Assembly (NCBI RefSeq): GCF_963921235.1
Contig: NC_086108.1
Coordinates: 23,126,001-23,190,000, forward strand
Direction: 5' to 3'
DNA from: Mobula hypostoma
Lineage: Eukaryota
DNA: 64,000 nt
In this document: piece after piece, positions 3,236 through 64,000 of the stretch
Layout of the letters: the number at the start of each line of letters is the position of its first letter
Numbering within the stretch: the first letter of the stretch is position 1
The notes under the pieces: model-generated
Told to the model about the DNA's origin: nothing
What the model saw: only the letters and a program-made list of their open reading frames with translations
The model's database searches: none
Position numbers and translations under genes: made by a program

Positions 3236-6200
3236 GACACCCCGGCTGAAATCTGGAGGAAAACACACAGAGGATGCAGAGGAGGATCAAAAAGGTGAGG
3301 GAAGAGGACCGGGTCGAGACAACAGAGGCTTATGGAGAAGAGGAGTTATAAGCCGTGTCGCCCCTCCCTCATCATGGGCAATCTGAGATCGCTGGGTAAT
3401 AAAATGGACGAATTGACGGCACTTGTCAGAAGTCAGAGAACATTTCAGGAGAGCAGTGTCACGTGTTTTACTGAAACTTGGCTGCACGAGGACATACCCG
3501 ATCAAAGCGTTTCCATAGAGGGCTTCCAGACTGTTCGAACTGACTGGAATTGCACTGAGAGCGGTAAGCGTAAGGAAGGTGCGCTCGTGGTTCTGGTAAA
3601 CAACAGATGGTGCAATTCTGGTCATATTACAATCAAGGAACGTGTTTATAGCCCGGATATTGAACTTTTTGCTGTTGGACTCCGGCCATATTATTTGCCA
3701 AGGGAAATCTCGTATGCAATTGTGGTTGTTGTGTACATCCCTCCCTCTGCCAACCCGACGTCAGTATGTAACATCATTTACACCGTCATAGCCAGATTAC
3801 AAACCCAACACCCGAGTGCCCTCATTACCATCTCGGGTGACTTCAACCATGTTACCATGGCTAGAACACTGCCCAACTTCATGCAGTATGTGAGCTGTAC
3901 AACCAGAGGGGAGAGGACTCTGGACTTGATGTACGCTAACGTTAAGGATGCATACAGCTCCTCTCTCCTCCCCCCATTGGGAAGGTCAGATCACAACCTG
4001 GTGCATCTAAAACCCTGCTACATGCCTCTGGTGAAGAGTAAACCTGCAACCTCGAGGACAGTGAGGAAATGGTCAGAGGAGGCTTACGAGGCGCTCCAGG
4101 GTTGTTTTGAGATGACAGACTGGCAGGCACTCTGTGAGCCACATGGAGAGGATATTGATGGGCTCACAGAGTGCATCACTGATTACATCAATTTCTGTGT
4201 GAACTGCAATGTTCCGACAAGAACTGTCCTTTGTTATTCGAATAATAAGCCATAGGTATCAAAGGACATTAAGGACACCCTGAACGCTAAAAAGAGGGCA
4301 TTTAGAGATGGAAATAGGGAGGAGCTCTGGGCAATACAGAGGGACCTGAAAGCCAGAATCAGGGAGGCTAAAGACAGGTACAGGAGGAAGCTTGAGTGGA
4401 AACTCCAGCAGAACAACATGAGAGAGGTCTGGAGTGGGATGAGGACCATCACTGGGTTCCGGCAAACTAACAACAGAGGAGTTGAAGGCAGTGTGGACAG
4501 GGCCAATGAACTTAACCTGTTCCTTAACAGATTTGACATTGTGGCCCCTGCCCATCCCCCACATGAGTCATCTGTTGTCGGCCCCAACCAACACATATCC
4601 ACTCTCCCCTCCTACCCCTCCTCACAGTCCCCCACCCTGCTCTCATGACTATACCCCTTCCCCACACGAAACCACCACGGTGGGCTTCACAGCTGAACGG
4701 GTGAGCTGAAACGTCTCAACTCAAGCAAGGCTGCAGGACTGGATGGTGTCAGTACCAGGGTGCTCAAAGCCTGTGCCCTTCAGCTATGTGGAGTTCTTCG
4801 CCATGTATTCAACCTGAGTCTGAGGCTCCGGAGGGTTCCTGTGCTGTGGAAGATGTCCTGCCTCGTCCCTGTGCCAAAGATGCCGCACCCCAGCGGCCTC
4901 AATGACTACAGACCAGTGGCGTTGACCTCCCACATCATTAAGACCCTGGAGAGACTTGTCCTGGAGCTGCTCTGGCGTATGCTCAGGCCACACTTAGATC
5001 CCCTCCAGTTCGCCTACCAGACCCGACTAGGAGTTGAGAATGCCATTGTCTACCTGCTGAACCGTGTCTATACCCACCTGGACAAGCCAGGGAGCACTGT
5101 GAGGGTCATGTTTTTTGACTTTTCCAGTGCGTTCAACACCATCCGCCCTGCTCTGCTGGGGGAGAAGCTGACAGCGATGCAGGTGGATGCTCCCCTGGTG
5201 TCATGGATTCTTGACCTACATGACTGACAGACCACAGTACGTGTGCTTGCAACACTGTATGTCCGACAGAGTGATCAGCAGCACTGGGGCTCCACAGGGG
5301 ACTGTCCTGTCTCCCTTTCTCTTCACCATTTACACCTCGGATTTCAAGTACTGCACAGTGTCTTGTCATCTTCAGAAGTTTTCTGATGACTCTGCCATAG
5401 TTGGATGCATCAGCAAGGGAGATGAGGCTGAATACAGGGCTACAGTGGGAAACTTTGTCCCATGGTGTGAGCAGAATTATCTGCAGCTTAATGTGAAAAA
5501 GACTAGGGAGCTGGTGGTGGTCCTGAGGAGGGCTAAGGCCCGGTGACCCCTGTTTCCATCCAGGGGGTCAGTGTGGACATGGTGGAGGATTACAAATACC
5601 TGGGGATACCAATTGACAATAAACTGGACTGGTCAAAGAACACTGAGGCTGTCTACAAGAAGGGTCAGAGCCATCTCTATTTCCTGAGGAGACTGAGGTC
5701 CTTTAACATCTGCCGGACGATGCTGAGGATGTTCTACGAGTCTGTGGTGGCCAGTGCGATCATGTTTGCTGTTGTGTGCTGGGGCAGCAGGCTGAGGGTA
5801 GCAGACACCGACAGAATCAACAAACTCATTTATAAGGCCAGTGATGTTGTGGGGATGGAACTGGACTCTCTGACGGTGGTGTCTGAAAAGAGGATGCTGT
5901 CCAAGTTGCATGCCATCTTGGACAATGTCTCCCATCCACTACATAATGTACTGGTTGGGCACAGGAGTACATTCAGCCAGAGATTCATTCCACCCAGACG
6001 CAACACTGAGCGTCATAGGAAGTCATTCCTGCCTGTGGCCATCAAACTTTACAACTCCTCCCTTGGAGGGTCAGACACCCTGAGCCAATAGGCTGGTCCT
6101 GGACTTATTTCCTGGCATAATTTACATATTACTATTTAACTATTTATGGTTTTATTATTACTATTTAATTATTTATGGTGCAACTGTAATGAAAACCAAT

Positions 6201-17971: not shown

Positions 17972-18584
17972 ATGCTGACCCTCGGCTTCCTATTTGCCCT
18001 GTGCGCTTCACTGGAGTTGCTGACATTCAGCTCGCCAGTCCGGGCGAGCTCGCATCGCCGCTACAAGAGGGCTCTGGCTGCCCGCGCCGAGTCCAGTCCC
18101 AGTCCCAGTCCCAGCCCCGGAGAGCAGCGCTGCTGGCCGGCAGAGAAGAGAGGCTGGGGCCGGCGAGTTGCCTCCACAGCCCAGCTCGCTCTGTACCCGT
18201 GGGCTGCGGAGTATGGACACCCGGAAGGCTGGAGCCGGGCGAGGAGCAGCTCATATCCTGATGGGAGCAGCCTGTACCTGGGCGGGGAGAGCAGCGGATA
18301 TCCCAGCGAGTGCGGCGGAGCTGCGGCCGCCAGGGGTTTCGGCTACCCCGGCGGAGGCAGCGGCTCGGCGGCGGCAGACAGCGCCGGAGGCGGCTTGCCA
18401 GCACCTCGAGGGTGGTCGTCGGGACCGGCGGAGTGCGACCCCTCCGTTGTCACGGCTGTCTATCTGTCCGGCGACAAGGGACGCCTGCAGCTGCGGCGAG
18501 ACTCAATAATGCCCCGGGGACGCTTCACCGCCGAGATGTGGCTGAAGCCCGAGGGAGGGCAGAACAACCCGGCTATCGTGGCAG
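17972..18584 (+). CDS. PAPPA2: Pappalysin-2 (PAPP-A2) first coding exon: signal peptide, propeptide and start of the LamG-like domain
   Basis: The ATG at 17972 has A at -3 and opens a hydrophobic signal peptide ([20 protein letters not shown]). 'GEQRCW..LALYP' resembles human PAPPA2 'EGERCW..FGVYP'. '[25 protein letters not shown]' matches PAPPA2 '[25 protein letters not shown]' better than PAPPA 'LRAEGGQRSPAVITG' (human sequences recalled). The exon ends at GCAG|GTAAGG in phase 1. Confidence 0.92.
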
Positions 18585-18590
18585 GTAAGG
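18585..18590 (+). other. PAPPA2: 5' splice donor of the PAPPA2 intron
   Basis: CAG|GTAAGG lies exactly where pappalysin similarity stops (..PAIVA-G). No ORF in the window resembles the expected next exon (VFDNCSH..), so the intron probably extends beyond 64000. Confidence 0.88.
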
Positions 18591-21640: not shown

Positions 21641-22737
21641 AACACAAAATAATCTGCAGATGCTGTTGTCAAAGGAACACTCACAATGCGCTGGAGGAAC
21701 TCAGCAGGTCAGTCAGCATCAGTTGAAAAGATTAGTCCACGTTTTGGGCCGAAACCCTTCGTCAGGACTGAAGGAAGAACTTTGGGGAGGGTTTGAAGAA
21801 TGCTGGTAGTTGAAAAAAACAGTAATTTTAAAGACAAAGGGGTGGGGGAGGGGAAGCAGGGAGGTGATTGGCAGGAGAACAATGCGAAGTAGTAGAAGGA
21901 GGCGGAACTATGAGGGAGGTGATGTAAAATAGGGATAGAGGAAGGGAGGGGGAGGGAATTACTGGAAGTTGGAGAATTCTATGTTCATACCAAGGGGCTG
22001 GAGACTACCTAGACGGTATATGAGGTGTTGCTCCGCCAACCTGAGTTTAGCTTCATCATGGCAATAGAGGAGGCCATGTATGGACATATCTGAATGGGAA
22101 TGGGAAGCAGAGTTGAAGTGGATGGCTACCGGGAGATCCTGTCTGTTGTGGCGGACGGAGTGGAGGTGCTCGACGAAGCGGTCCCCCAATCTGCATCGGG
22201 TTTCACCGATGTAGAGGAGGCCGCACCGGGAGCACCGGATGCAATAGATGACCCCAACAGATTCGCAAGTGAAGTGTTGCCTCACCTGGAAGGACTGTTT
22301 GTGGCTTTGAATGGTGGCAAGATAGGAGGTGTAGGGACAGGTGTAGCACTTATGCTTACAGGCATAAGTGCTGGGTGGGAGATCCGTGGGGATAGACGTG
22401 CGGATAAGTGAGTCATGGAGGGATCGATCCGTGCGGAAAGCGGAGAGGGGTGGAGAGGGAAAGATGTGCTTAGTGATGGGGTCCTGTTGAAGGTGGCGGA
22501 AGTTGCAGAGGATAATGTGCTGGATCCGGAGGCTGGAGGGGTGGTAGGAGAGGACAAGGGGAACTCTGTCCCTGTTGTAGTGGTGGGAAGATGGGATGAG
22601 GGCCGAAGTGCGGGAAATGGAGGAAATGCGGGTGAGGGCATCATTGATCACCGTAGGAGGGAAACCATGATCCTTAAAGAAGGAGGACATTTGAGATGTC
22701 CTGGAACGGAAAGCCTCATCTTAGGAGCAGATGCAGC
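21640..22737 (-). mobile_element. Penelope-like element 3' portion with GIY-YIG endonuclease (left arm of an inverted pair)
   Basis: ORF 21959-22690 reads 'CKHKCYTCPY..FTCESVGVIYCIRCSRCGLLYIGETRCRLGDRFVEH..VAIHFN..EQHLIYRLGSLQPLGMN', a GIY-YIG domain with a Cys-rich linker. A 3' UTR and terminal repeat with a decayed hammerhead lie at 21734-21769. Confidence 0.9.
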
Positions 22738-22997
22738 TTTTGCAAATATTCAATGAAGCATTAATAATGAAAATGTGATTTATGAAAATGCTGTCCTCAG
22801 AATGTCTTTTACTCACGAATCAGTGAAGCTAATTCAGGGCCTTCAGTTCTTCATTTTCTGTAGGTATCCTTCATATACTTGTAAACAAAGTGCCCATCTC
22901 CCCAATGACATCATCTGAGTGGATGCATTTAAATATCTAGAGCAGCAAAAACATTTAAATATTCTCTCTCTTCCAGATCCTGACTTTCATTCAAACC

Positions 22998-23222
22998 TGA
23001 GAAAATCTGCAGATGCTGGAAATCCAAAGCAACACACACAAAATGTTAGAGGAACTCAACAGGCCAGGCAGCATCGATGGAAAAGAGTAAGCAGTTGATG
23101 TTTTGGGCTCAGACCCTTCACCAGTCCTGAAGAAGGGTCTTGGCCCAAAACATTGACTGTTCATTCTTCTGCATCGATGCTGCCCGACTTGCTGAGTTCC
23201 TCCAGCATTTTGTGTGTGTTGG
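22998..23222. mobile_element. Short fold-back element made of two inverted Penelope-like termini
   Basis: 'acacacacaaaatgttagaggaactcaacaggccaggcagcatcgatg..gacccttca' is followed by its reverse complement 'tgaagaagggtc..catcgatgctgcccgacttgctgagttcctccagcattttgtgtgtgt'. Confidence 0.8.
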
Positions 23223-23229
23223 CTTCACT

Positions 23230-24275
23230 CAAATCTCCCACCCCGCCACATGCAAAAATGCCATTCCCTATTCCCAGTTCCTCCGTCTCCGCCGCATCCG
23301 CTCCGAGGATGAGGCTTTCCATTCCAGGACATCTCAAATGTCCTCTTTCTTTCAGGATCGTGGTTTCCCTTCTACTGCCATCAAGGATGCCCTCACCCGC
23401 ATCTCCTCCATTTCCCGCACTTCGGCTCTCACCCCATCCTCCCGCCACCACAACAGGGACAGAGTTCCCCTTGTCCTCACCTACCACTCCACTAGCATCC
23501 GGATCCAGCACATTATCCTTCGCAACTTCTGCCACCTTCAACAGGACCCCACCACTAAGCACATCTTTTCCTCTCCACCCCTCTCCGCTTTACTCAGGGA
23601 TCGATCCCTCCGCGACTCCCTTATCCACATGTCCATCCCCACTGATCTCCCACCCGGCACTTATCCCTGTAGGCGTTAATTGCTACACCGGTCCCTACAC
23701 CTCATCTCTTGCCACCATTCAGGGCCCCAAACAGTCATTCCAGGTGAGGCAACACTTCACTTCAGAGTCTGTTGGGGTCATCTATTGCATCCGGTGCTCC
23801 CGGTGCGGCCTCCTCTACATCGGTGAAACCCAACGCAGATTGGGGGACTGCTTCACCGAGCACCTCCAGTCCATCCACCACAACAGACAGGATTTCCCAG
23901 TAGCCACCCACTTCAACTCTGCTTCCCATTCCCATTCAGATATGTCCATACATGGCCTCCTTTACTGCCATGATGAGGCTAAACTCAGGTTGGAGGAGCA
24001 ACACCTCATATACCATCTAGGTAGTCTCCAGCCCCTTGGTATGAACATAGAATTCTCCAACTTCCGGTAATTCCCTCCCCCTCCCTTCCGCTATCCCTAT
24101 TTTACATCACCTCCCTCATAGTTCCACCTCCTTCTACTACTTTGCATTGTTCTCATGCCAATCACCTCCCTGCTTCCTCCCCCACCCTTTTGTCTTTAAA
24201 ATTACTGTTCTTTTCAACTACCAGCATTCTTCAAACCCTCCCCAATGTTCTTCCTTCAGTCCCGACGAAGGGTTT
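23230..24275 (+). mobile_element. Penelope-like element 3' portion with GIY-YIG endonuclease (right arm of an inverted pair)
   Basis: 'KNAIPYSQFLRLRRI' (PLE RT C-terminal region) runs to 'VIYCIRCSRCGLLYIGETQRRLGDCFTEH..GMNIEFSNFR*' with one frameshift near 23675. It is a close inverted copy of 21760-22737. Confidence 0.9.
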
Positions 24276-24589
24276 CCCGAATGCAAGCTCGATTTTAAAA
24301 TTTAAGAGAAGTTTATGTAGGTACATGGATGGTAGGGGTACAGAGGGCTATGGTCTGGGTGCAGTTCAATGGGACTAGGTAGCTCAAATGGTTTGGCAGG
24401 ACTAGTTGGGCTGAAGGGCCTGTAATTTTCTGTGCTGTATTTTCTATAAGTCTGTGATTCTGTCTACACCTACAGCAGGTATTTCATTGCTCCAAATTTA
24501 CGTTAATTCCAGTGGCATCACCAAAACCAATTTAACACCTACTGCAGGGATATCAGCTCGGTTAATTCTACACCAATACTAGAGATATA

Positions 24590-31965: not shown

Positions 31966-32218
31966 CCACTGTAGTTGATGAGAATGTGGGGAGAAGTCAG
32001 CGGGAATGAAGCAGGATTGATGCAAATAGGGAGCTGGTGGTTGGGCTAAATAGACTGTTTCTGTGCTGGACCTCTCTATGACACATGTTCTGAGTATATC
32101 TTGTCCCCCAGAGTCAGTGTTGGCTTCAGAGTTGGTGAGGATATTGGGAGACTGAAGGAACACACATAAAGTTGCTGGTGAATGCAGCAGGCCAGGCAGC
32201 ATCTATAGGAAGAGGTAC

Positions 32219-32254
32219 AGTCTACGTTTCGGGCCGAGACCCTTCGTCAGGACT
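32219..32254 (-). ncRNA. Minimal type I hammerhead ribozyme (PLE-associated), GUA cleavage triplet
   Basis: The minus strand reads AGUC-CUGACGA-A-GGGUCUCGGCCC-GAA-ACGU-A-GACU. The core is intact, stem I is AGUC/GACU, stem II is GGGU/GCCC, and stem III is reduced to palindromic ACGU. Confidence 0.75.
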
Positions 32255-32976
32255 AACTGGAAGAAGAGCTAGTAAGAGATTTGAAAGTGGGAGGGGAGGG
32301 GGAGGGGGAGATCCAAAATAGTAGGAGAAGACAGGAGGGGGAGGGATGGAACCAAGAGCTGGACAGTTGATTGGCAAAAGGGTTATGAGAGGATCATGGG
32401 ACAGGAGGCCAGGGAGAAAGAAAAGGGGGAGGGGGAAAAACCCAGAGGATGGGCGAGAGGTATAGTGAGAGGGACAGAGGGAGAAAAAGGAGAGAGAGAG
32501 AAAAAAAATGTGTGTATATAAATAAATAACGGATGGGGTACGAGGGGGAGGTGGGGCATTAGCGGAAGTTTGAGAAGTTGATGTTCAAGCCATCAGGTTG
32601 GAGGCTACCCAGACAGAATATAAGGTGTTGTTCCTCAAACCTGATGGCATGAACATTGACTTCTCAAACTTCCGCTAATGCCCCACCTCCCCCTCGTACC
32701 CCATGCGTGATTTATTTATATACACACATTCTTTGTCTCTCTCTCCTTTTTCTCCATCTGCCCCTCTCACTATACCCCTTGCCCATCTTCTGGGCTTTTT
32801 CCCCCCTCCCCCTTTTCTTTCTCCCTGGCCTTTGTCCCATGATCCTCTCATATCCCTTTTGCCAATCACCTGTTCAGCTCTTGGCTCCATCCCTCCCCTT
32901 CCTGTCTTCTCCTAACATTTCGGATCTCCCCCTCCCCCTCCCACTTTCAAATCTCTTACTAGCTCTTCTTTCAGTT

Positions 32977-33012
32977 AGTCCTGACGAAGGGTCTCGGCCC
33001 GAAACGTCGACT
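32977..33012 (+). ncRNA. Minimal type I hammerhead ribozyme (PLE-associated), GUC cleavage triplet
   Basis: The sequence is AGUC-CUGACGA(32981-32987)-A-GGGUCUCGGCCC-GAAA(33001-33004)-CGUC-GACU. Stem I is AGUC/GACU, stem II is GGGU/GCCC and stem III is palindromic ACGU. Predicted cleavage is after C33008. Confidence 0.8.
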
Positions 33013-33914
33013 GTACCTCTTCCTATAGATGCTGCCTGGCCTGCTGCGTTCACCAGCAACTTTTATGTGTGTTGCTTGAAATTCCAGCATCTGCAGATTT
33101 CCTCATGTGTGGGAGACTGAAGGAAATTTCTTAAGGCACGACAAAAATCATGTGTATTATCATCTACACAAATACACAGGTGCAAAGAAAAACTTACTTG
33201 TAGCCGTATCACAGGCACATACAGTGAATCAGAGACACAATATTCACAAGAAAAGCATAAATTAAAAATAAATTATATTAAATTGTTCAATAGAGAACAC
33301 AATTAGAATGGAAAAAAAAGTCCATTGTATTGCAATATGATCAAAGTGGTCATCATGTTACTATACTGAGGTAGTGATTAAGGATGCGTGGGTTGAGTCA
33401 AGACCCAGACAGCTGAAGTGAAGTAGCTGTTCTTGAACTCTGTTCAAGTTTCTGTACCTCCTGCCTGATGATAGCTGTAAGAAGATGGCATGGCCGGGAA
33501 GGTATGGGTATTTCTGATGATGGGGTGGGATTTGCCAGTGAGGTATTGGGCTGACCCAAGGCATCATTTGTGCAGTTTTCTGAATGGAATAAAAATTGGA
33601 ACTTTTAAGAAGAATAAATGTTCTTATTCACTAATGTTCTGCTTCAAAATTGGGCTCAACCAAGATTACTTAGAAGTTGTCTGAGTGATGGGGAAGACCA
33701 TCAACAAACTGCAAGAACCTAAATGGCCATTATAGATCTCTGTGAATATACATGTTTTTTGTTATCTCTAACTTGACAATATAATAAACACATACATGCG
33801 TAATTTTAACTCTAACTTTTTAAGATGGTTGTACCATAGCTGATCTCAGACCAGTTTTCACAATCTGATTCCTGCACAGTGACCACACTGCTAGGTTTAG
33901 TAGTGGAGCTGGGA

Positions 33915-39597: not shown

Positions 39598-40907
39598 TGT
39601 CATGGTTCAGTCTGTGAAGTCCGCATTCCGGTTCACGGTCCGGTCCATCGACCCTTGCTCCAGGTTTTCCTGTCTACCCTGTTTCTGTTCCTGTTGAGCA
39701 CTAATTGAGGCAGCTGATTCTCGTTGGGGCTGGCTGCATAAATACCTTCAGAGACCAGGACATGGCTGCTGGTTTGTTCTTGTCCTTACTCCTTGTATCC
39801 CTTCCCCTGCCTTCTGTTTTCTCGCCTTGCATTGCCTAAAGCCTTGCCTTGTCTTGCCGATAACTCTCGCCTCGCCTGAAGTTCTTGTCTCACCTTGCAT
39901 TGCCTGAAGCCTTGCCTTGTCTTGCTGGTAACTCTCGCCTCGTCTCGCTTGAGATCTTGTCTTGGCCCACCCTGAACCTAGCTCCCTTCCTGTCCCTTGC
40001 CTCCATCGGGTAAGCCAGGCCAGATTGCCGTTACCCTGCGGTGGGTCCTGTCCCTTCCTGCCCCTTGCCTCCGTCGAGTAAGCCAGGCCAGATTGCCGTT
40101 ACCCTGCGGTTGGTTCTGTCCCTTCCTGTCCCTCACTTCTGTCGGGTGGAGATCTGCGCCCTGCCCAGGAGTACCACGCCCTGCCCAGGAGGAGCTTCAA
40201 CACCCCAAGACTTGAGCCTCGCCCCAAGCCAAGCTTCAAGACCCCAAGTCTCGAGCCTCGCCCCAAGCCAAGCTTCAAGACCCCAAGTCTCGAGCCTCGC
40301 CCCAAGCCAAGCTTCAAGACCCCAAGTCTCGAGCCTCGCCCCAAGCCAAGCTTCAAGACCCCAAGTCTCGAGCCTCGCCCCAAGCCAAGCTTCAAGACCC
40401 CAAGTCTCGAGCCTCGCCCCAAGCCAAGCTTCAAGACCCCAAGTCTCGAGCCTCGCCCCAAGCCAAGCTTCAAGACCCCAAGTCTCGAGCCTCGCCCCAA
40501 GCCAAGCTTCAAGACCCCAAGTCTCGAGCCTCGCCCCAAGCCAAGCTTCAAGACCCCAAGTCTCGAGCCTCGCTCCAAGCCAAGCTTCAAGACCCCAAGC
40601 CTCAAGTCTCTGGTCTCCAGCCTCGCCTCAAGTCTCTGGTCTCCAGCCTCGTCCTGCCTGCTGGCCAAGTCACGTCCTTGCCTAGTTCTGGGGTCCGAGC
40701 CAGAGGCAAGACCCAGGTTTTGGGTCCTTGTCCAGTCTCTGGCTTGGAGTCCAAGCCCGTACTCCTAGCTCTCTTGTCCAGTCCTGTTCCAGGTTCCCGG
40801 TTTTCGTGTCCATGTCCTGGCCCTCGGTCTGCATCCTAGTCCTGTCCGTAGTACTTCAGTGTCTGTATCTTGCACTTGGGTCCGTTCCCAGCCACCTCCT
40901 TATGACA
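39598..40907 (+). mobile_element. Gypsy/Ty3-like solo LTR (~1.3 kb)
   Basis: It starts TGTCAT (39598) and ends ATGACA (40907), giving inverted TG..CA termini. The flanks are GGGCC (39593-39597) and GGGCT (40908-40912), a 5-bp TSD with one mismatch. It has a TATA-like CATAAATA at ~39737 and the 3' 'cttgcacttgggtcc' motif seen in fish Gypsy LTRs. No gag or pol lies adjacent. Confidence 0.75.
40214..40603 (+). repeat. 39-bp tandem repeat, 10 copies, inside the solo LTR
   Basis: The unit GAGCCTCGCCCCAAGCCAAGCTTCAAGACCCCAAGTCTC starts at 40214, 40253 and so on to 40565. Nine copies look identical and the last has two substitutions. Confidence 0.95.
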
Positions 40908-62164: not shown

Positions 62165-62330
62165 ACACAGTTTGGACTGTGGGAGGAAACCAGTGCACCT
62201 GGGGCGGGGTGGGGGAAACACTTGAGGTGACAGTCGGAAAGTGCAAACCCCACTCAGACAGCACTAGAGATTGGGTTTGAACCTAAGGAACTGCAGCTGT
62301 GGAGCAACAGTCCTACCAACTCTATGGCCG
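62165..62330 (-). mobile_element. V-SINE (HE1-like) whose 5' end abuts the 33-bp minisatellite
   Basis: The reverse complement has B-box GGTTCAAACC, 'ggggtttgcactttcc' and V-domain 'aggtgcactggtttcctcccacagtccaaac'. Confidence 0.7.
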
Positions 62331-64000
62331 TCCTACCCACCTATCTACATAAAACCAGTGCCGTCCTCCCCATCTCTCTACATAAAACCAGTGCCGTCCT
62401 CCCCATCTCCCTACATAAAACCAGTACTGTCCTCCCCATCTGTCTACATAAAACCAGTGCTGTCCTACCCATCTAACTACATAAAACCAGTGCTGTCCTC
62501 TCCATCTCTCTACATAAAACCAGTGCCGTCCTCCCCATCTCCCTACATAAAACCAGTACCGTCCTCCCCATCTGTCTACATAAAACCTGTGCCATCCTAC
62601 CCATCTAACTGCATAAAACCAGTGCCGTCCTCTCTATCTCTCTACATAAAACCAGTGCCGTCATCCCCATCTCTCTACATAAAAGCAGTCCCGTCCTCCC
62701 CGTCTAACTACATAAAACCAGTGCCGTCCTCCCCATCTATCTACATAAAACCAGTGCCGTCCTCTCCATCTATCTACATAAAACCAGTGCTATCCTCTCC
62801 ATCTCTCTACATAAAACCAGTGCCATCCTCTCCATCTCTCTACATAAAACCAGTGCCGTCCTACCCATCTATGTACATAAAACCAGGGCCGTCCTCTCCA
62901 TCTCCCTACATAAAACCAGTGCCATCCTCCCCATCTATCTACATAAAACCAGTGCCGTCCTCTCCATCTCTCTACATAAAACTAGTGCCGTCCTCCCCAT
63001 CTATCTACATAAAACCAGTGTCGTCCTACCCATCTAACTACATAAAACCAGCGCCGTCCTACCCATCTAACTACATAAAACCAGCGCTGTCCTACCCATC
63101 TAACTACATAAAACCAGCGCCGTCCTCCCCATCTAACTACATAAAACCAGCGCCGTCCTACCCATCTATCTACATAAAACCAGTGTCGTCCTACCCATCT
63201 AACTACATAAAACCAGCGCCGTCCTACCCATCTAACTACATAAAACCAGCGCTGTCCTACCCATCTAACTACATAAAACCAGTGTCGTCCTACCCATCTA
63301 ACTACATAAAACCAGCGCTGTCCTACCCATCTGTCTACATAAAACCAGTGCCGTCCTACCCACCTATCTACATAAAACCAGTGCCATCCTACCCACCCGT
63401 CTACATAAAACCAGTGCTGCCCCACCCACCCATGTACATAAAACCAGTGCCACCCCACCCACCCGTCTACATAAAACCATTGCCGACTTCCCCATCTCTC
63501 TACATAAAACCAGTACCGTCCTCTCTATCTCTCTACATAAAACCAGTGCCGTCCTCCCCATCTCTCTACATAAAACCAGTGCCATCCTCCCCATCTGTCT
63601 ACATAAAACCTGTGCCGTCCTACCCATCTATCTACATAAAACCAGTGCCATCCTACCCATCTAACTACATAAAACCAGTGCCGTCCTCCCCATCTATCTA
63701 CATAAAACCAGTGCCGTCCTACCCATCTCTCTACATAAAACCTGTGCTGCCCCACCCACCCATGTACATAAAACCAGTGCCACCCCACCCATCTCTCTAC
63801 ATAAAACCATTGCCGACTTCCCCATCTCTCTATGTAAAACAAGTGCCGTCCTCCCCATCTCTCTACATAAAACCAGTACCGTCCTCTCTATCTCTCTACA
63901 TAAAACCAGTGCCGTCCTCCCCATCTCTCTACATAAAACCAGTGCCGTCCTCCCCATCTCTCTACATAAAACCAGTGCCGTCCTCCCCATCTGTCTACAT
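62329..64000 (+). repeat. 33-bp minisatellite (~50 copies, continues past the window end)
   Basis: The unit is CTACATAAAACCAGTGCCGTCCTCCCCATCTCT. AAAACCAGTG recurs at 62351, 62384 and onward (period 33). The 11-aa repeats in the minus-strand ORFs confirm the period. Confidence 0.97.

What the first reader, a model, noticed from the sequence alone, without database searches (positions are those of the whole stretch)
32977..33012. Core-intact minimal hammerhead ribozyme on the sense strand of the PAPPA2 intron
Seen: the Penelope-like terminus reads AGUC CUGACGA A GGGUCUCGGCCC GAA ACGU C GACU. All conserved hammerhead core nucleotides are present (CUGANGA, GAAA, GUC), with a 4-bp stem I, a short stem II, an extra A after A9 and stem III reduced to palindromic ACGU. 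Established: Penelope-like elements carry minimal type I hammerheads with a palindromic stem III that are proposed to cleave as dimers. Inference: this copy would be transcribed as part of the PAPPA2 pre-mRNA and could cut it after 33008 if it finds a same-sense partner. The ribozyme class is known, but these termini in ray-like genomes are easily treated as plain repeats.
Basis: partly seen in the sequence, partly recalled or inferred. Interest (0 to 1): 0.8.

Follow-up and report, generated by a model that had tools for sequence, protein, structure and literature searches.

The report
Penelope hammerhead relic buried in hairpin
A complete small self-cutting RNA motif does sit in a PAPPA2 intron of this ray, but it is one of about 64,000 look-alikes left by a known kind of jumping gene, and its own mirror copy upstream is predicted to pair with it, so it likely does not cut the gene's RNA.

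Summary
The motif is real: a minimal type I hammerhead at 32977-33012, on the sense strand of an 83.7-kb PAPPA2 intron. It is the terminal-repeat ribozyme of a 5'-truncated Penelope-like retrotransposon. The genome holds 4,891 exact copies and 64,397 with core, stems and palindrome intact. Full-length relatives have RT + GIY-YIG frames between two such motifs. The extra A, short stems and palindromic stem III fit the published class consensus (Cervera 2014).

The proposed cut of PAPPA2 pre-mRNA is unlikely. The insert (32161-33109, 16-bp target duplication) is a foldback. Its antisense arm is transcribed first and is predicted to pair with the ribozyme (P≥0.97 at 8 of 8 sampled bases). Alone, the motif is predicted to misfold its core. 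Its nearest same-sense copies, 10 and 48 kb away, are damaged. In 1.44 Mb of four gene bodies, sense copies are not depleted (88:93; intact 20:15). No cleavage data could be had. This scan reported the same class before, on other DNA of this genome and of sharks.

The parts
32977..33012 (+). Minimal type I hammerhead motif (stem I 4 bp, CUGACGA+A, stem II 4 bp, GAAA, palindromic ACGU, C17); predicted cut after 33008
   Evidence: fits the class consensus in the PMC4209133 supplement
32633..33109 (+). Right arm: 3' end of a Penelope-like element (end of the ORF, pyrimidine-rich spacer, hammerhead, tail)
   Evidence: 416 of 463 aligned bases identical to the terminal repeat of full-length element L245
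32634..32678 (+). Last codons and stop of the Penelope ORF (ends ...DFSNFR)
   Evidence: same ending as the 1043-aa frames
32161..32632 (-). Left arm: inverted, 5'-truncated second copy of the same element end, without the tail
   Evidence: 411 of 436 aligned bases identical between the arms
32219..32254 (-). Second hammerhead copy (C17 to A); on the PAPPA2 transcript it is the antisense partner of the finding
33078..33109 (+). About 35-nt tail, on this arm only; element ends cluster near 33065-33080 and 33103-33111
   Evidence: same signature as in PMC11167929 and PMC8557442
32145..32160 (+). Target-site duplication, left copy (16 bp)
   Evidence: only 2 occurrences in the window
33110..33125 (+). 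Target-site duplication, right copy (16 bp)
17972..18584 (+). PAPPA2 coding exon upstream of the host intron (GT donor at 18585)
32957..32978 (+). Branch-point-like, pyrimidine-rich and AG sequence just before stem I (possible 3' splice site; untested)
   Evidence: by analogy with the D. virilis Penelope intron end described in PMC4209133

Best explanation
This is the minimal hammerhead motif in the terminal repeat of a truncated Penelope-like retrotransposon insertion, which likely served the parent element's RNA and is predicted to be inert in the PAPPA2 pre-mRNA. Shown: the family, the insert boundaries, the foldback, the copy number, and the lack of strand bias in four gene bodies. Inferred for the parent element: a full-length unit carries one motif 5' and one 3' of the ORF, about 3.5 kb apart. 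Two motifs would pair through their ACGU palindromes to build stem III, probably with help from the element's own protein, and cut after C17. Inferred for this copy: it inserted once as a head-to-head pair. On the PAPPA2 transcript the antisense arm comes out first, and the right arm would zip onto it as it emerges, giving a hairpin of about 470 bp that holds the ribozyme double-stranded until the intron is spliced out.
For: Family: 15 of 30 loci with the exact 36-mer match a Penelope RT/GIY-YIG protein nearby (L027 and L028 are one insertion). Of 13 fetched long-ORF loci, 11 have a 1043-aa frame, 12 show the motif after the ORF and 8 also before it in direct orientation. Pfam gives RVT_1 and GIY-YIG, both below their cut-offs. 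Selection in parent lineages: older and younger families differ at 1 of 36 ribozyme positions (the free N7) against 10 of 53 downstream positions (Fisher p=0.025). Decay after insertion: of 82 flank-selected copies, 65 keep the core and 29 keep core, stems and palindrome; G12 is lost in 7. Silencing here: the foldback folds at -855 kcal/mol with the motif paired. The motif pairs with its antisense copy at -71.8 kcal/mol, against -3.1 for the stem III dimer helix, and stems I and II have probability 0.0 in the foldback. The lone 36-mer pairs core G5-G8 with C15.2-C17 at P≥0.985. Orientation: 88 sense to 93 antisense of 181 copies; intact 20:15; without an inverted partner 40:46 (gene bodies). 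An active intronic hammerhead cut reporter mRNA up to 20-fold in zebrafish (PMC11856399, passages), so efficient cutting should have left a bias.
Against: No cleavage assay and no raw-read end data. Folding is equilibrium prediction; helicases, ADAR or the element's protein could open the hairpin. The orientation test covers four genes and 35 intact copies, paired arms are not independent, and one gene alone leaned antisense (19:33, p=0.07), so weak or tissue-limited cutting is not excluded. No compensatory base changes were found among the ray families, so the fold rests on the match to the published consensus. Non-CpG core sites did change less than flank sites (8 of 738 against 61 of 2,624 after dropping six subfamily sites; my arithmetic), which may reflect base composition.
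Confidence: 0.88

Rival explanations
1. This copy cuts the PAPPA2 pre-mRNA after 33008 by pairing with another sense copy in cis or in trans, and lowers or shapes PAPPA2 output.
For: All core bases, the G10.1-C11.1 pair and the palindrome are intact, a state kept by only 11 of 82 flank-selected copies. It lies on the sense strand. Family sequence is so abundant that trans partners could exist.
Against: Foldback pairing. The nearest same-sense copies, at 23123 and 48 kb downstream, lack G12 or the palindrome. The 4-bp dimer helix is only -3.1 kcal/mol. 4,891 copies are identical, so intactness needs no selection. No sense depletion.
Confidence: 0.04
2. The family's ribozymes are conditionally active in host transcripts: when an autonomous element is expressed, its protein would bind the tail region of intronic copies and switch on cleavage. 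Solo and tandem sense copies would be the targets, more than this foldback.
For: The anole Poseidon ribozyme cleaved only with its protein (PMC11167929, parts 1-2 read). Long open frames exist in this genome (51 scored matches; 11 of 13 fetched have 1043 aa). An intact same-sense tandem pair lies in a later PAPPA2 intron (L046:4402 and 4889).
Against: No sense depletion even among copies without an inverted partner (15:18 core-intact). The anole study found no RNA-seq ends at the cut site. Trans activation is untested.
Confidence: 0.06
3. The motif is no longer a working ribozyme in any ray element and is kept for another role, such as a protein-binding, promoter or splice signal.
For: The long-ORF elements carry G10.1·U11.1 in place of G-C in all 12 loci where the 3' motif was found. 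The monomer is predicted to misfold. No covariation was seen. Ribozyme mutants did not impair insertion in vitro in anole (PMC11167929). The downstream ~50 nt are conserved too.
Against: Family differences fall on the positions a hammerhead tolerates (N7, N11.1 to a wobble, loop II). At CpG sites, tolerated changes outnumber lethal ones (N7/G8 11:3, p=0.057; N11.1/G12 41:7, though that reflects one subfamily), while other CpGs are symmetric (12:16, 9:7, 4:8). G·U closing pairs also occur in published vertebrate motifs.
Confidence: 0.15

Closest known systems
Minimal hammerheads (min-HHR) in the pLTRs of metazoan Penelope-like elements (Cervera and de la Peña 2014, PMC4209133)
   Same: Type I; CUGANGAH core with an extra base before stem II; G10.1-Y11.1; GAAA; palindromic 15.2/16.2; short stem I; U-rich upstream; located in the terminal repeat; mostly single truncated copies; second motif on the opposite strand within 100-700 bp described there too.
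   Different: Host is a ray; no shark, skate, Callorhinchus or Leucoraja term was found in the one supplement file searched (file 1 not searched). Copy number is 64,397 against about 9,000 in Xenopus and 4,000 in coelacanth, counted with different descriptors. Stem II is shorter (4 bp) than in many listed motifs.
Poseidon element of Anolis carolinensis (PAc) and its protein-assisted hammerhead (Frangieh et al. 2024, PMC11167929)
   Same: RT + C-terminal GIY-YIG frame, partial-tandem pLTRs, ribozyme near the ORF start, two clustered 3' ends that define a 30-40 nt tail about 100 nt past the ribozyme.
   Different: In the ray elements the motif lies about 90 nt before the open frame rather than across the start codon. 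Protein dependence was not tested here. No tree was built, so the Poseidon or Neptune clade is not assigned.
Ultraconserved intronic hammerheads of amniotes (RECK and others; PMC6155905, passages)
   Same: Type I hammerhead on the sense strand of a vertebrate intron.
   Different: Those are conserved across species at given loci and proposed to be domesticated. This one is a copy of a very abundant repeat with its transposon context and target duplication intact; no sign of locus-specific conservation was found, and no orthologous genome was available.
Non-LTR retrozymes (bioRxiv 10.64898/2026.07.22.740005)
   Same: Type I hammerheads derived from Penelope pLTRs; reported from one chondrichthyan; about 43% of Xenopus copies are intronic.
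   Different: Retrozymes are head-to-tail tandem repeats; this insert is an inverted pair that still carries the ORF end.

Membership tests
PLE minimal hammerhead (min-HHR) | Core CUGANGA, GAAA, UH in order | tested here: met
PLE minimal hammerhead (min-HHR) | Extra nucleotide between A9 and G10.1; G10.1-C11.1 pair | tested here: met
   A32988; G32989-C33000; consensus
PLE minimal hammerhead (min-HHR) | Stems I and II can pair; stem III reduced to a palindrome | tested here: met
   Both stems form in the isolated 36-mer (stem I P 0.66-0.91, stem II ≥0.90), but with the core mispaired
PLE minimal hammerhead (min-HHR) | Compensatory changes across families | tested here: inconclusive
   Stems are near-invariant among the ray families sampled; only a G-C to G·U change was seen
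PLE minimal hammerhead (min-HHR) | Self-cleavage after H17 as a dimer or with protein | not testable with these tools
   No assay; only contig runs were offered
EN+ Penelope-like element | Single ORF with RT and C-terminal GIY-YIG endonuclease | tested here: met
   In family members: 1043-aa frame with RVT_1 (E 3.4e-5) and GIY-YIG (E 1.1e-3), both under Pfam cut-offs, 55% identical to P0007. This insert keeps only the last codons.
EN+ Penelope-like element | Partial-tandem pLTRs, inverted 5'-truncated copy, one-sided 30-40 bp tail | tested here: met
   described in PMC8557442
EN+ Penelope-like element | Intron in the pLTR or 5' UTR (some members) | tested here: inconclusive
   Acceptor-like sequence before stem I; no GT..AG joint among the joints shown; the 3 genomic ORF-end-to-motif joins do not fit a clean splice
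Non-LTR retrozyme | Head-to-tail tandem of two or more hammerhead units | tested here: not met
   The insert is an inverted pair
Domesticated intronic hammerhead | Conserved at the orthologous site across species | not testable with these tools
   G000 has no relatives in the genome tool
Rfam hammerhead families | Covariance-model match | tested here: not met
   No hammerhead family among 16 matches at E≤5

The most novel reading that the evidence does not exclude
This ray genome carries about 64,000 intact-looking hammerheads, several times the published vertebrate counts, many of them sense in introns, beside open-frame Penelope elements. If the element's protein activates these ribozymes in trans, bursts of element expression would cut thousands of host pre-mRNAs, and the inverted arm of foldback insertions such as this one would act as a built-in off switch.
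Probability: 0.06. Interest if true: 0.7.

Novelty: new member of a known kind. Interest (0 to 1): 0.16.

Why it matters
As it stands it extends a known ribozyme class to a ray, where it is unusually abundant. It also supplies open-frame elements with which to test whether Penelope hammerheads need a dimer, their protein, or both. If host pre-mRNAs were cut, it would be a new way for a transposon to tax host gene expression, but the evidence here points against that for this copy.

Tried and rejected
Rfam scan: no hammerhead hit; the miRNA-family hits only reflect the foldback apex. Sequencing runs: no RNA holder on record was listed, and all runs were contigs. Laying them showed the family in those runs but cannot show ends, strand or level; no end pile-ups were listed, which is no evidence either way. 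Search for spliced, intron-less retrocopies: 3 genome-wide joins, which look like short-repeat deletions. A Peptidase_M43 search of the genome found nothing; the LamG search located the next PAPPA2 exon. Descriptor search for other hammerhead families with different stems: all 35 hits were this family. Lünse, Weinberg and Breaker (RNA Biol, dimer cleavage of PLE hammerheads) is not held; only its title in a reference list was seen, so its variants could not be compared. Literature searches for a prior report in cartilaginous fish found none specific to this family. The bioRxiv retrozyme preprint covers one chondrichthyan, and its supplements, which I could not see, may list this family. Rejected: chance motif; retrozyme (not tandem); domesticated ribozyme (ordinary repeat context).

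Full report
Observation. The 36 bases at 32977-33012 are as described. In hammerhead numbering they hold stem I (4 bp), C3-A9, an extra A, stem II (three G-C pairs, one U·G, 4-nt loop), G12-A15.1, the palindrome ACGU and C17 at 33008. The bare core pattern is weak evidence (11 matches against 4.9 expected), and the fold is not more stable than shuffles. A full descriptor gives 35 hits in 1.464 Mb against 0 in reversed sequence. Rfam did not detect it.

Host gene. A coding exon ends at 18584 with a GT donor. The next exon begins at G000:C50:23228278 after an AG, in frame. It is 96% identical to a stingray pappalysin-2-like protein and closer to PAPP-A2 than to PAPP-A. Eleven exon matches on the + strand span 245 kb. 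The motif is therefore sense, 14.4 kb into an 83.7-kb intron.

What the insert is. A 16-bp target duplication (32145-32160 and 33110-33125) brackets a 949-bp insert. It has two arms head to head, each the 3' end of a Penelope-like element: last codons, stop, pyrimidine-rich spacer and hammerhead. The arms are identical at 411 of 436 aligned bases; only the right arm has the ~35-nt tail. Inverted truncated copies and one-sided tails are standard for these elements (PMC8557442, passages). Of 30 loci with the exact 36-mer, 15 match a Penelope protein nearby. A protein search scored 51 long matches in the genome. Of 13 fetched, 11 have a 1043-aa frame, 12 show the motif after the ORF and 8 also before it; in 7 the two motifs lie 3,512-3,519 bp apart. 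Pfam finds RVT_1 and GIY-YIG below cut-off. The right arm is 89.8% identical to such an element's terminal repeat, so it belongs to a somewhat older subfamily. The long-frame elements have U at 11.1 where this copy has C.

Abundance. Exact copies number 4,891, flank-anchored family copies 24,039, and copies with core, stems and palindrome intact 64,397; controls were 0 each time. An intact copy in a large intron is expected: the genome average is about 18 per Mb.

Was the ribozyme selected? In parent lineages, probably. Among 387 copies found by the tail alone, the majority base of 177 older copies differs from this copy at 1 of 36 ribozyme positions, the free N7, and at 10 of 53 downstream positions (p=0.025). 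At CpG sites the tolerated change outnumbers the lethal one (11:3 at N7/G8; 41:7 at N11.1/G12, the latter one subfamily event), while three other CpGs are symmetric. No compensatory pair changes were found. After insertion the copies decay. Of 86 flank-selected copies, 4 with indels were dropped. Of the remaining 82, 65 keep the core, 45 keep core and stems, 29 also the palindrome, 11 also G10.1-C11.1, and 4 are exact.

Can this copy cut PAPPA2 RNA? Four results say it likely cannot. First, on the PAPPA2 transcript the antisense arm comes first; the two-arm RNA folds into one long hairpin (-855 kcal/mol). Eight of 8 sampled ribozyme bases pair with the antisense copy at P≥0.97 and stems I and II fall to 0.0. 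Second, alone the 36-mer pairs its catalytic core with the stem III strand (P≥0.985); the hammerhead-shaped monomer is 4 kcal/mol less stable, and the dimer helix is worth -3.1 kcal/mol. Third, the nearest same-sense copies, 9.9 kb upstream and 48 kb downstream, have lost G12 or the palindrome. Fourth, I counted copies by strand in 1.44 Mb of gene body: PAPPA2 and three CUB/Sushi giant genes whose strand comes from interleaved exon matches. The result was 88 sense to 93 antisense; core intact 40:33; fully intact 20:15; without an inverted partner 40:46. One gene leaned antisense (19:33, p=0.07) and the others did not. The test is small and would miss weak effects.

Literature. PMC4209133 (parts 1-2 of 4, supplement file 2 part 2 and a term search; file 1 not searched) defines the class. 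It treats the extra base and the palindrome as typical, and found no monomer cleavage and low dimer cleavage. PMC11167929 (parts 1-2 of 4) found that the anole ribozyme cleaves only with the element's protein, is not needed for insertion in vitro, and left no RNA-seq ends. The retrozyme preprint (part 1 of 5, section 12, passages) reports related repeats in one chondrichthyan and modest intron avoidance in Xenopus. PMC11856399, PMC6765202, PMC8557442 and PMC6155905 were seen as passages only. The Lünse et al. dimer paper was not available.

Mechanism. The most likely reading is a transposon-processing ribozyme that works in pairs on full-length element RNA, probably with protein help (inferred), and that is a silenced passenger at this locus (predicted). 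Rivals are cleavage by this copy (0.04), protein-triggered cleavage of other intronic copies (0.06), and loss of catalysis family-wide (0.15; this overlaps with the main reading on inertness here).

Verdict. A real motif and a new member of a known kind. Earlier notes of this scan reached the same class on other DNA, which I treat as leads only. The copy number is the one unusual aspect. Interest 0.16.

Noticed in passing
L046:4062-4979 (G000:C50, a later PAPPA2 intron): Two same-sense terminal repeats 487 bp apart, both with intact core, stems and palindrome (G·U at 10.1-11.1) and no inverted motif in the 10-kb stretch. This is a better candidate for cutting PAPPA2 pre-mRNA in cis than the finding.
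   Followed up: partly
L169 (G000:C76:19603884 and 19607334): Two intact sense motifs 3,450 bp apart, likely a near full-length tandem element, inside a CUB/Sushi giant gene; an inverted copy lies within 4 kb.
   Followed up: no
window 32957-32978: Branch-point-like sequence, pyrimidine tract and AG end at or just before stem I in young and old families, like the intron end of D. virilis Penelope. Splicing was not shown.
   Followed up: partly
window 21650-24276: An older, larger Penelope foldback with GIY-YIG ORF remnants on both strands and three decayed hammerhead copies (21734 -, 23093 -, 23123 +).
   Followed up: partly
L245-L257: Penelope elements with 1043-aa open RT + GIY-YIG frames and, in L245, tandem repeats 99.3% identical, so the family was active recently.
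   Followed up: partly
window 62195-63900 and 40106-40690: A 33-bp and a 39-bp minisatellite array in the same intron.
   Followed up: no
P0001: A stingray protein named 'divergent protein kinase domain 1C isoform X2' is 78% identical over the whole 253-aa Penelope fragment, which suggests a gene model that absorbed a transposon.
   Followed up: no
window 3299-6091: A near-complete, broken non-LTR retrotransposon ORF set upstream of the PAPPA2 exon, judged by eye from the translations.
   Followed up: no
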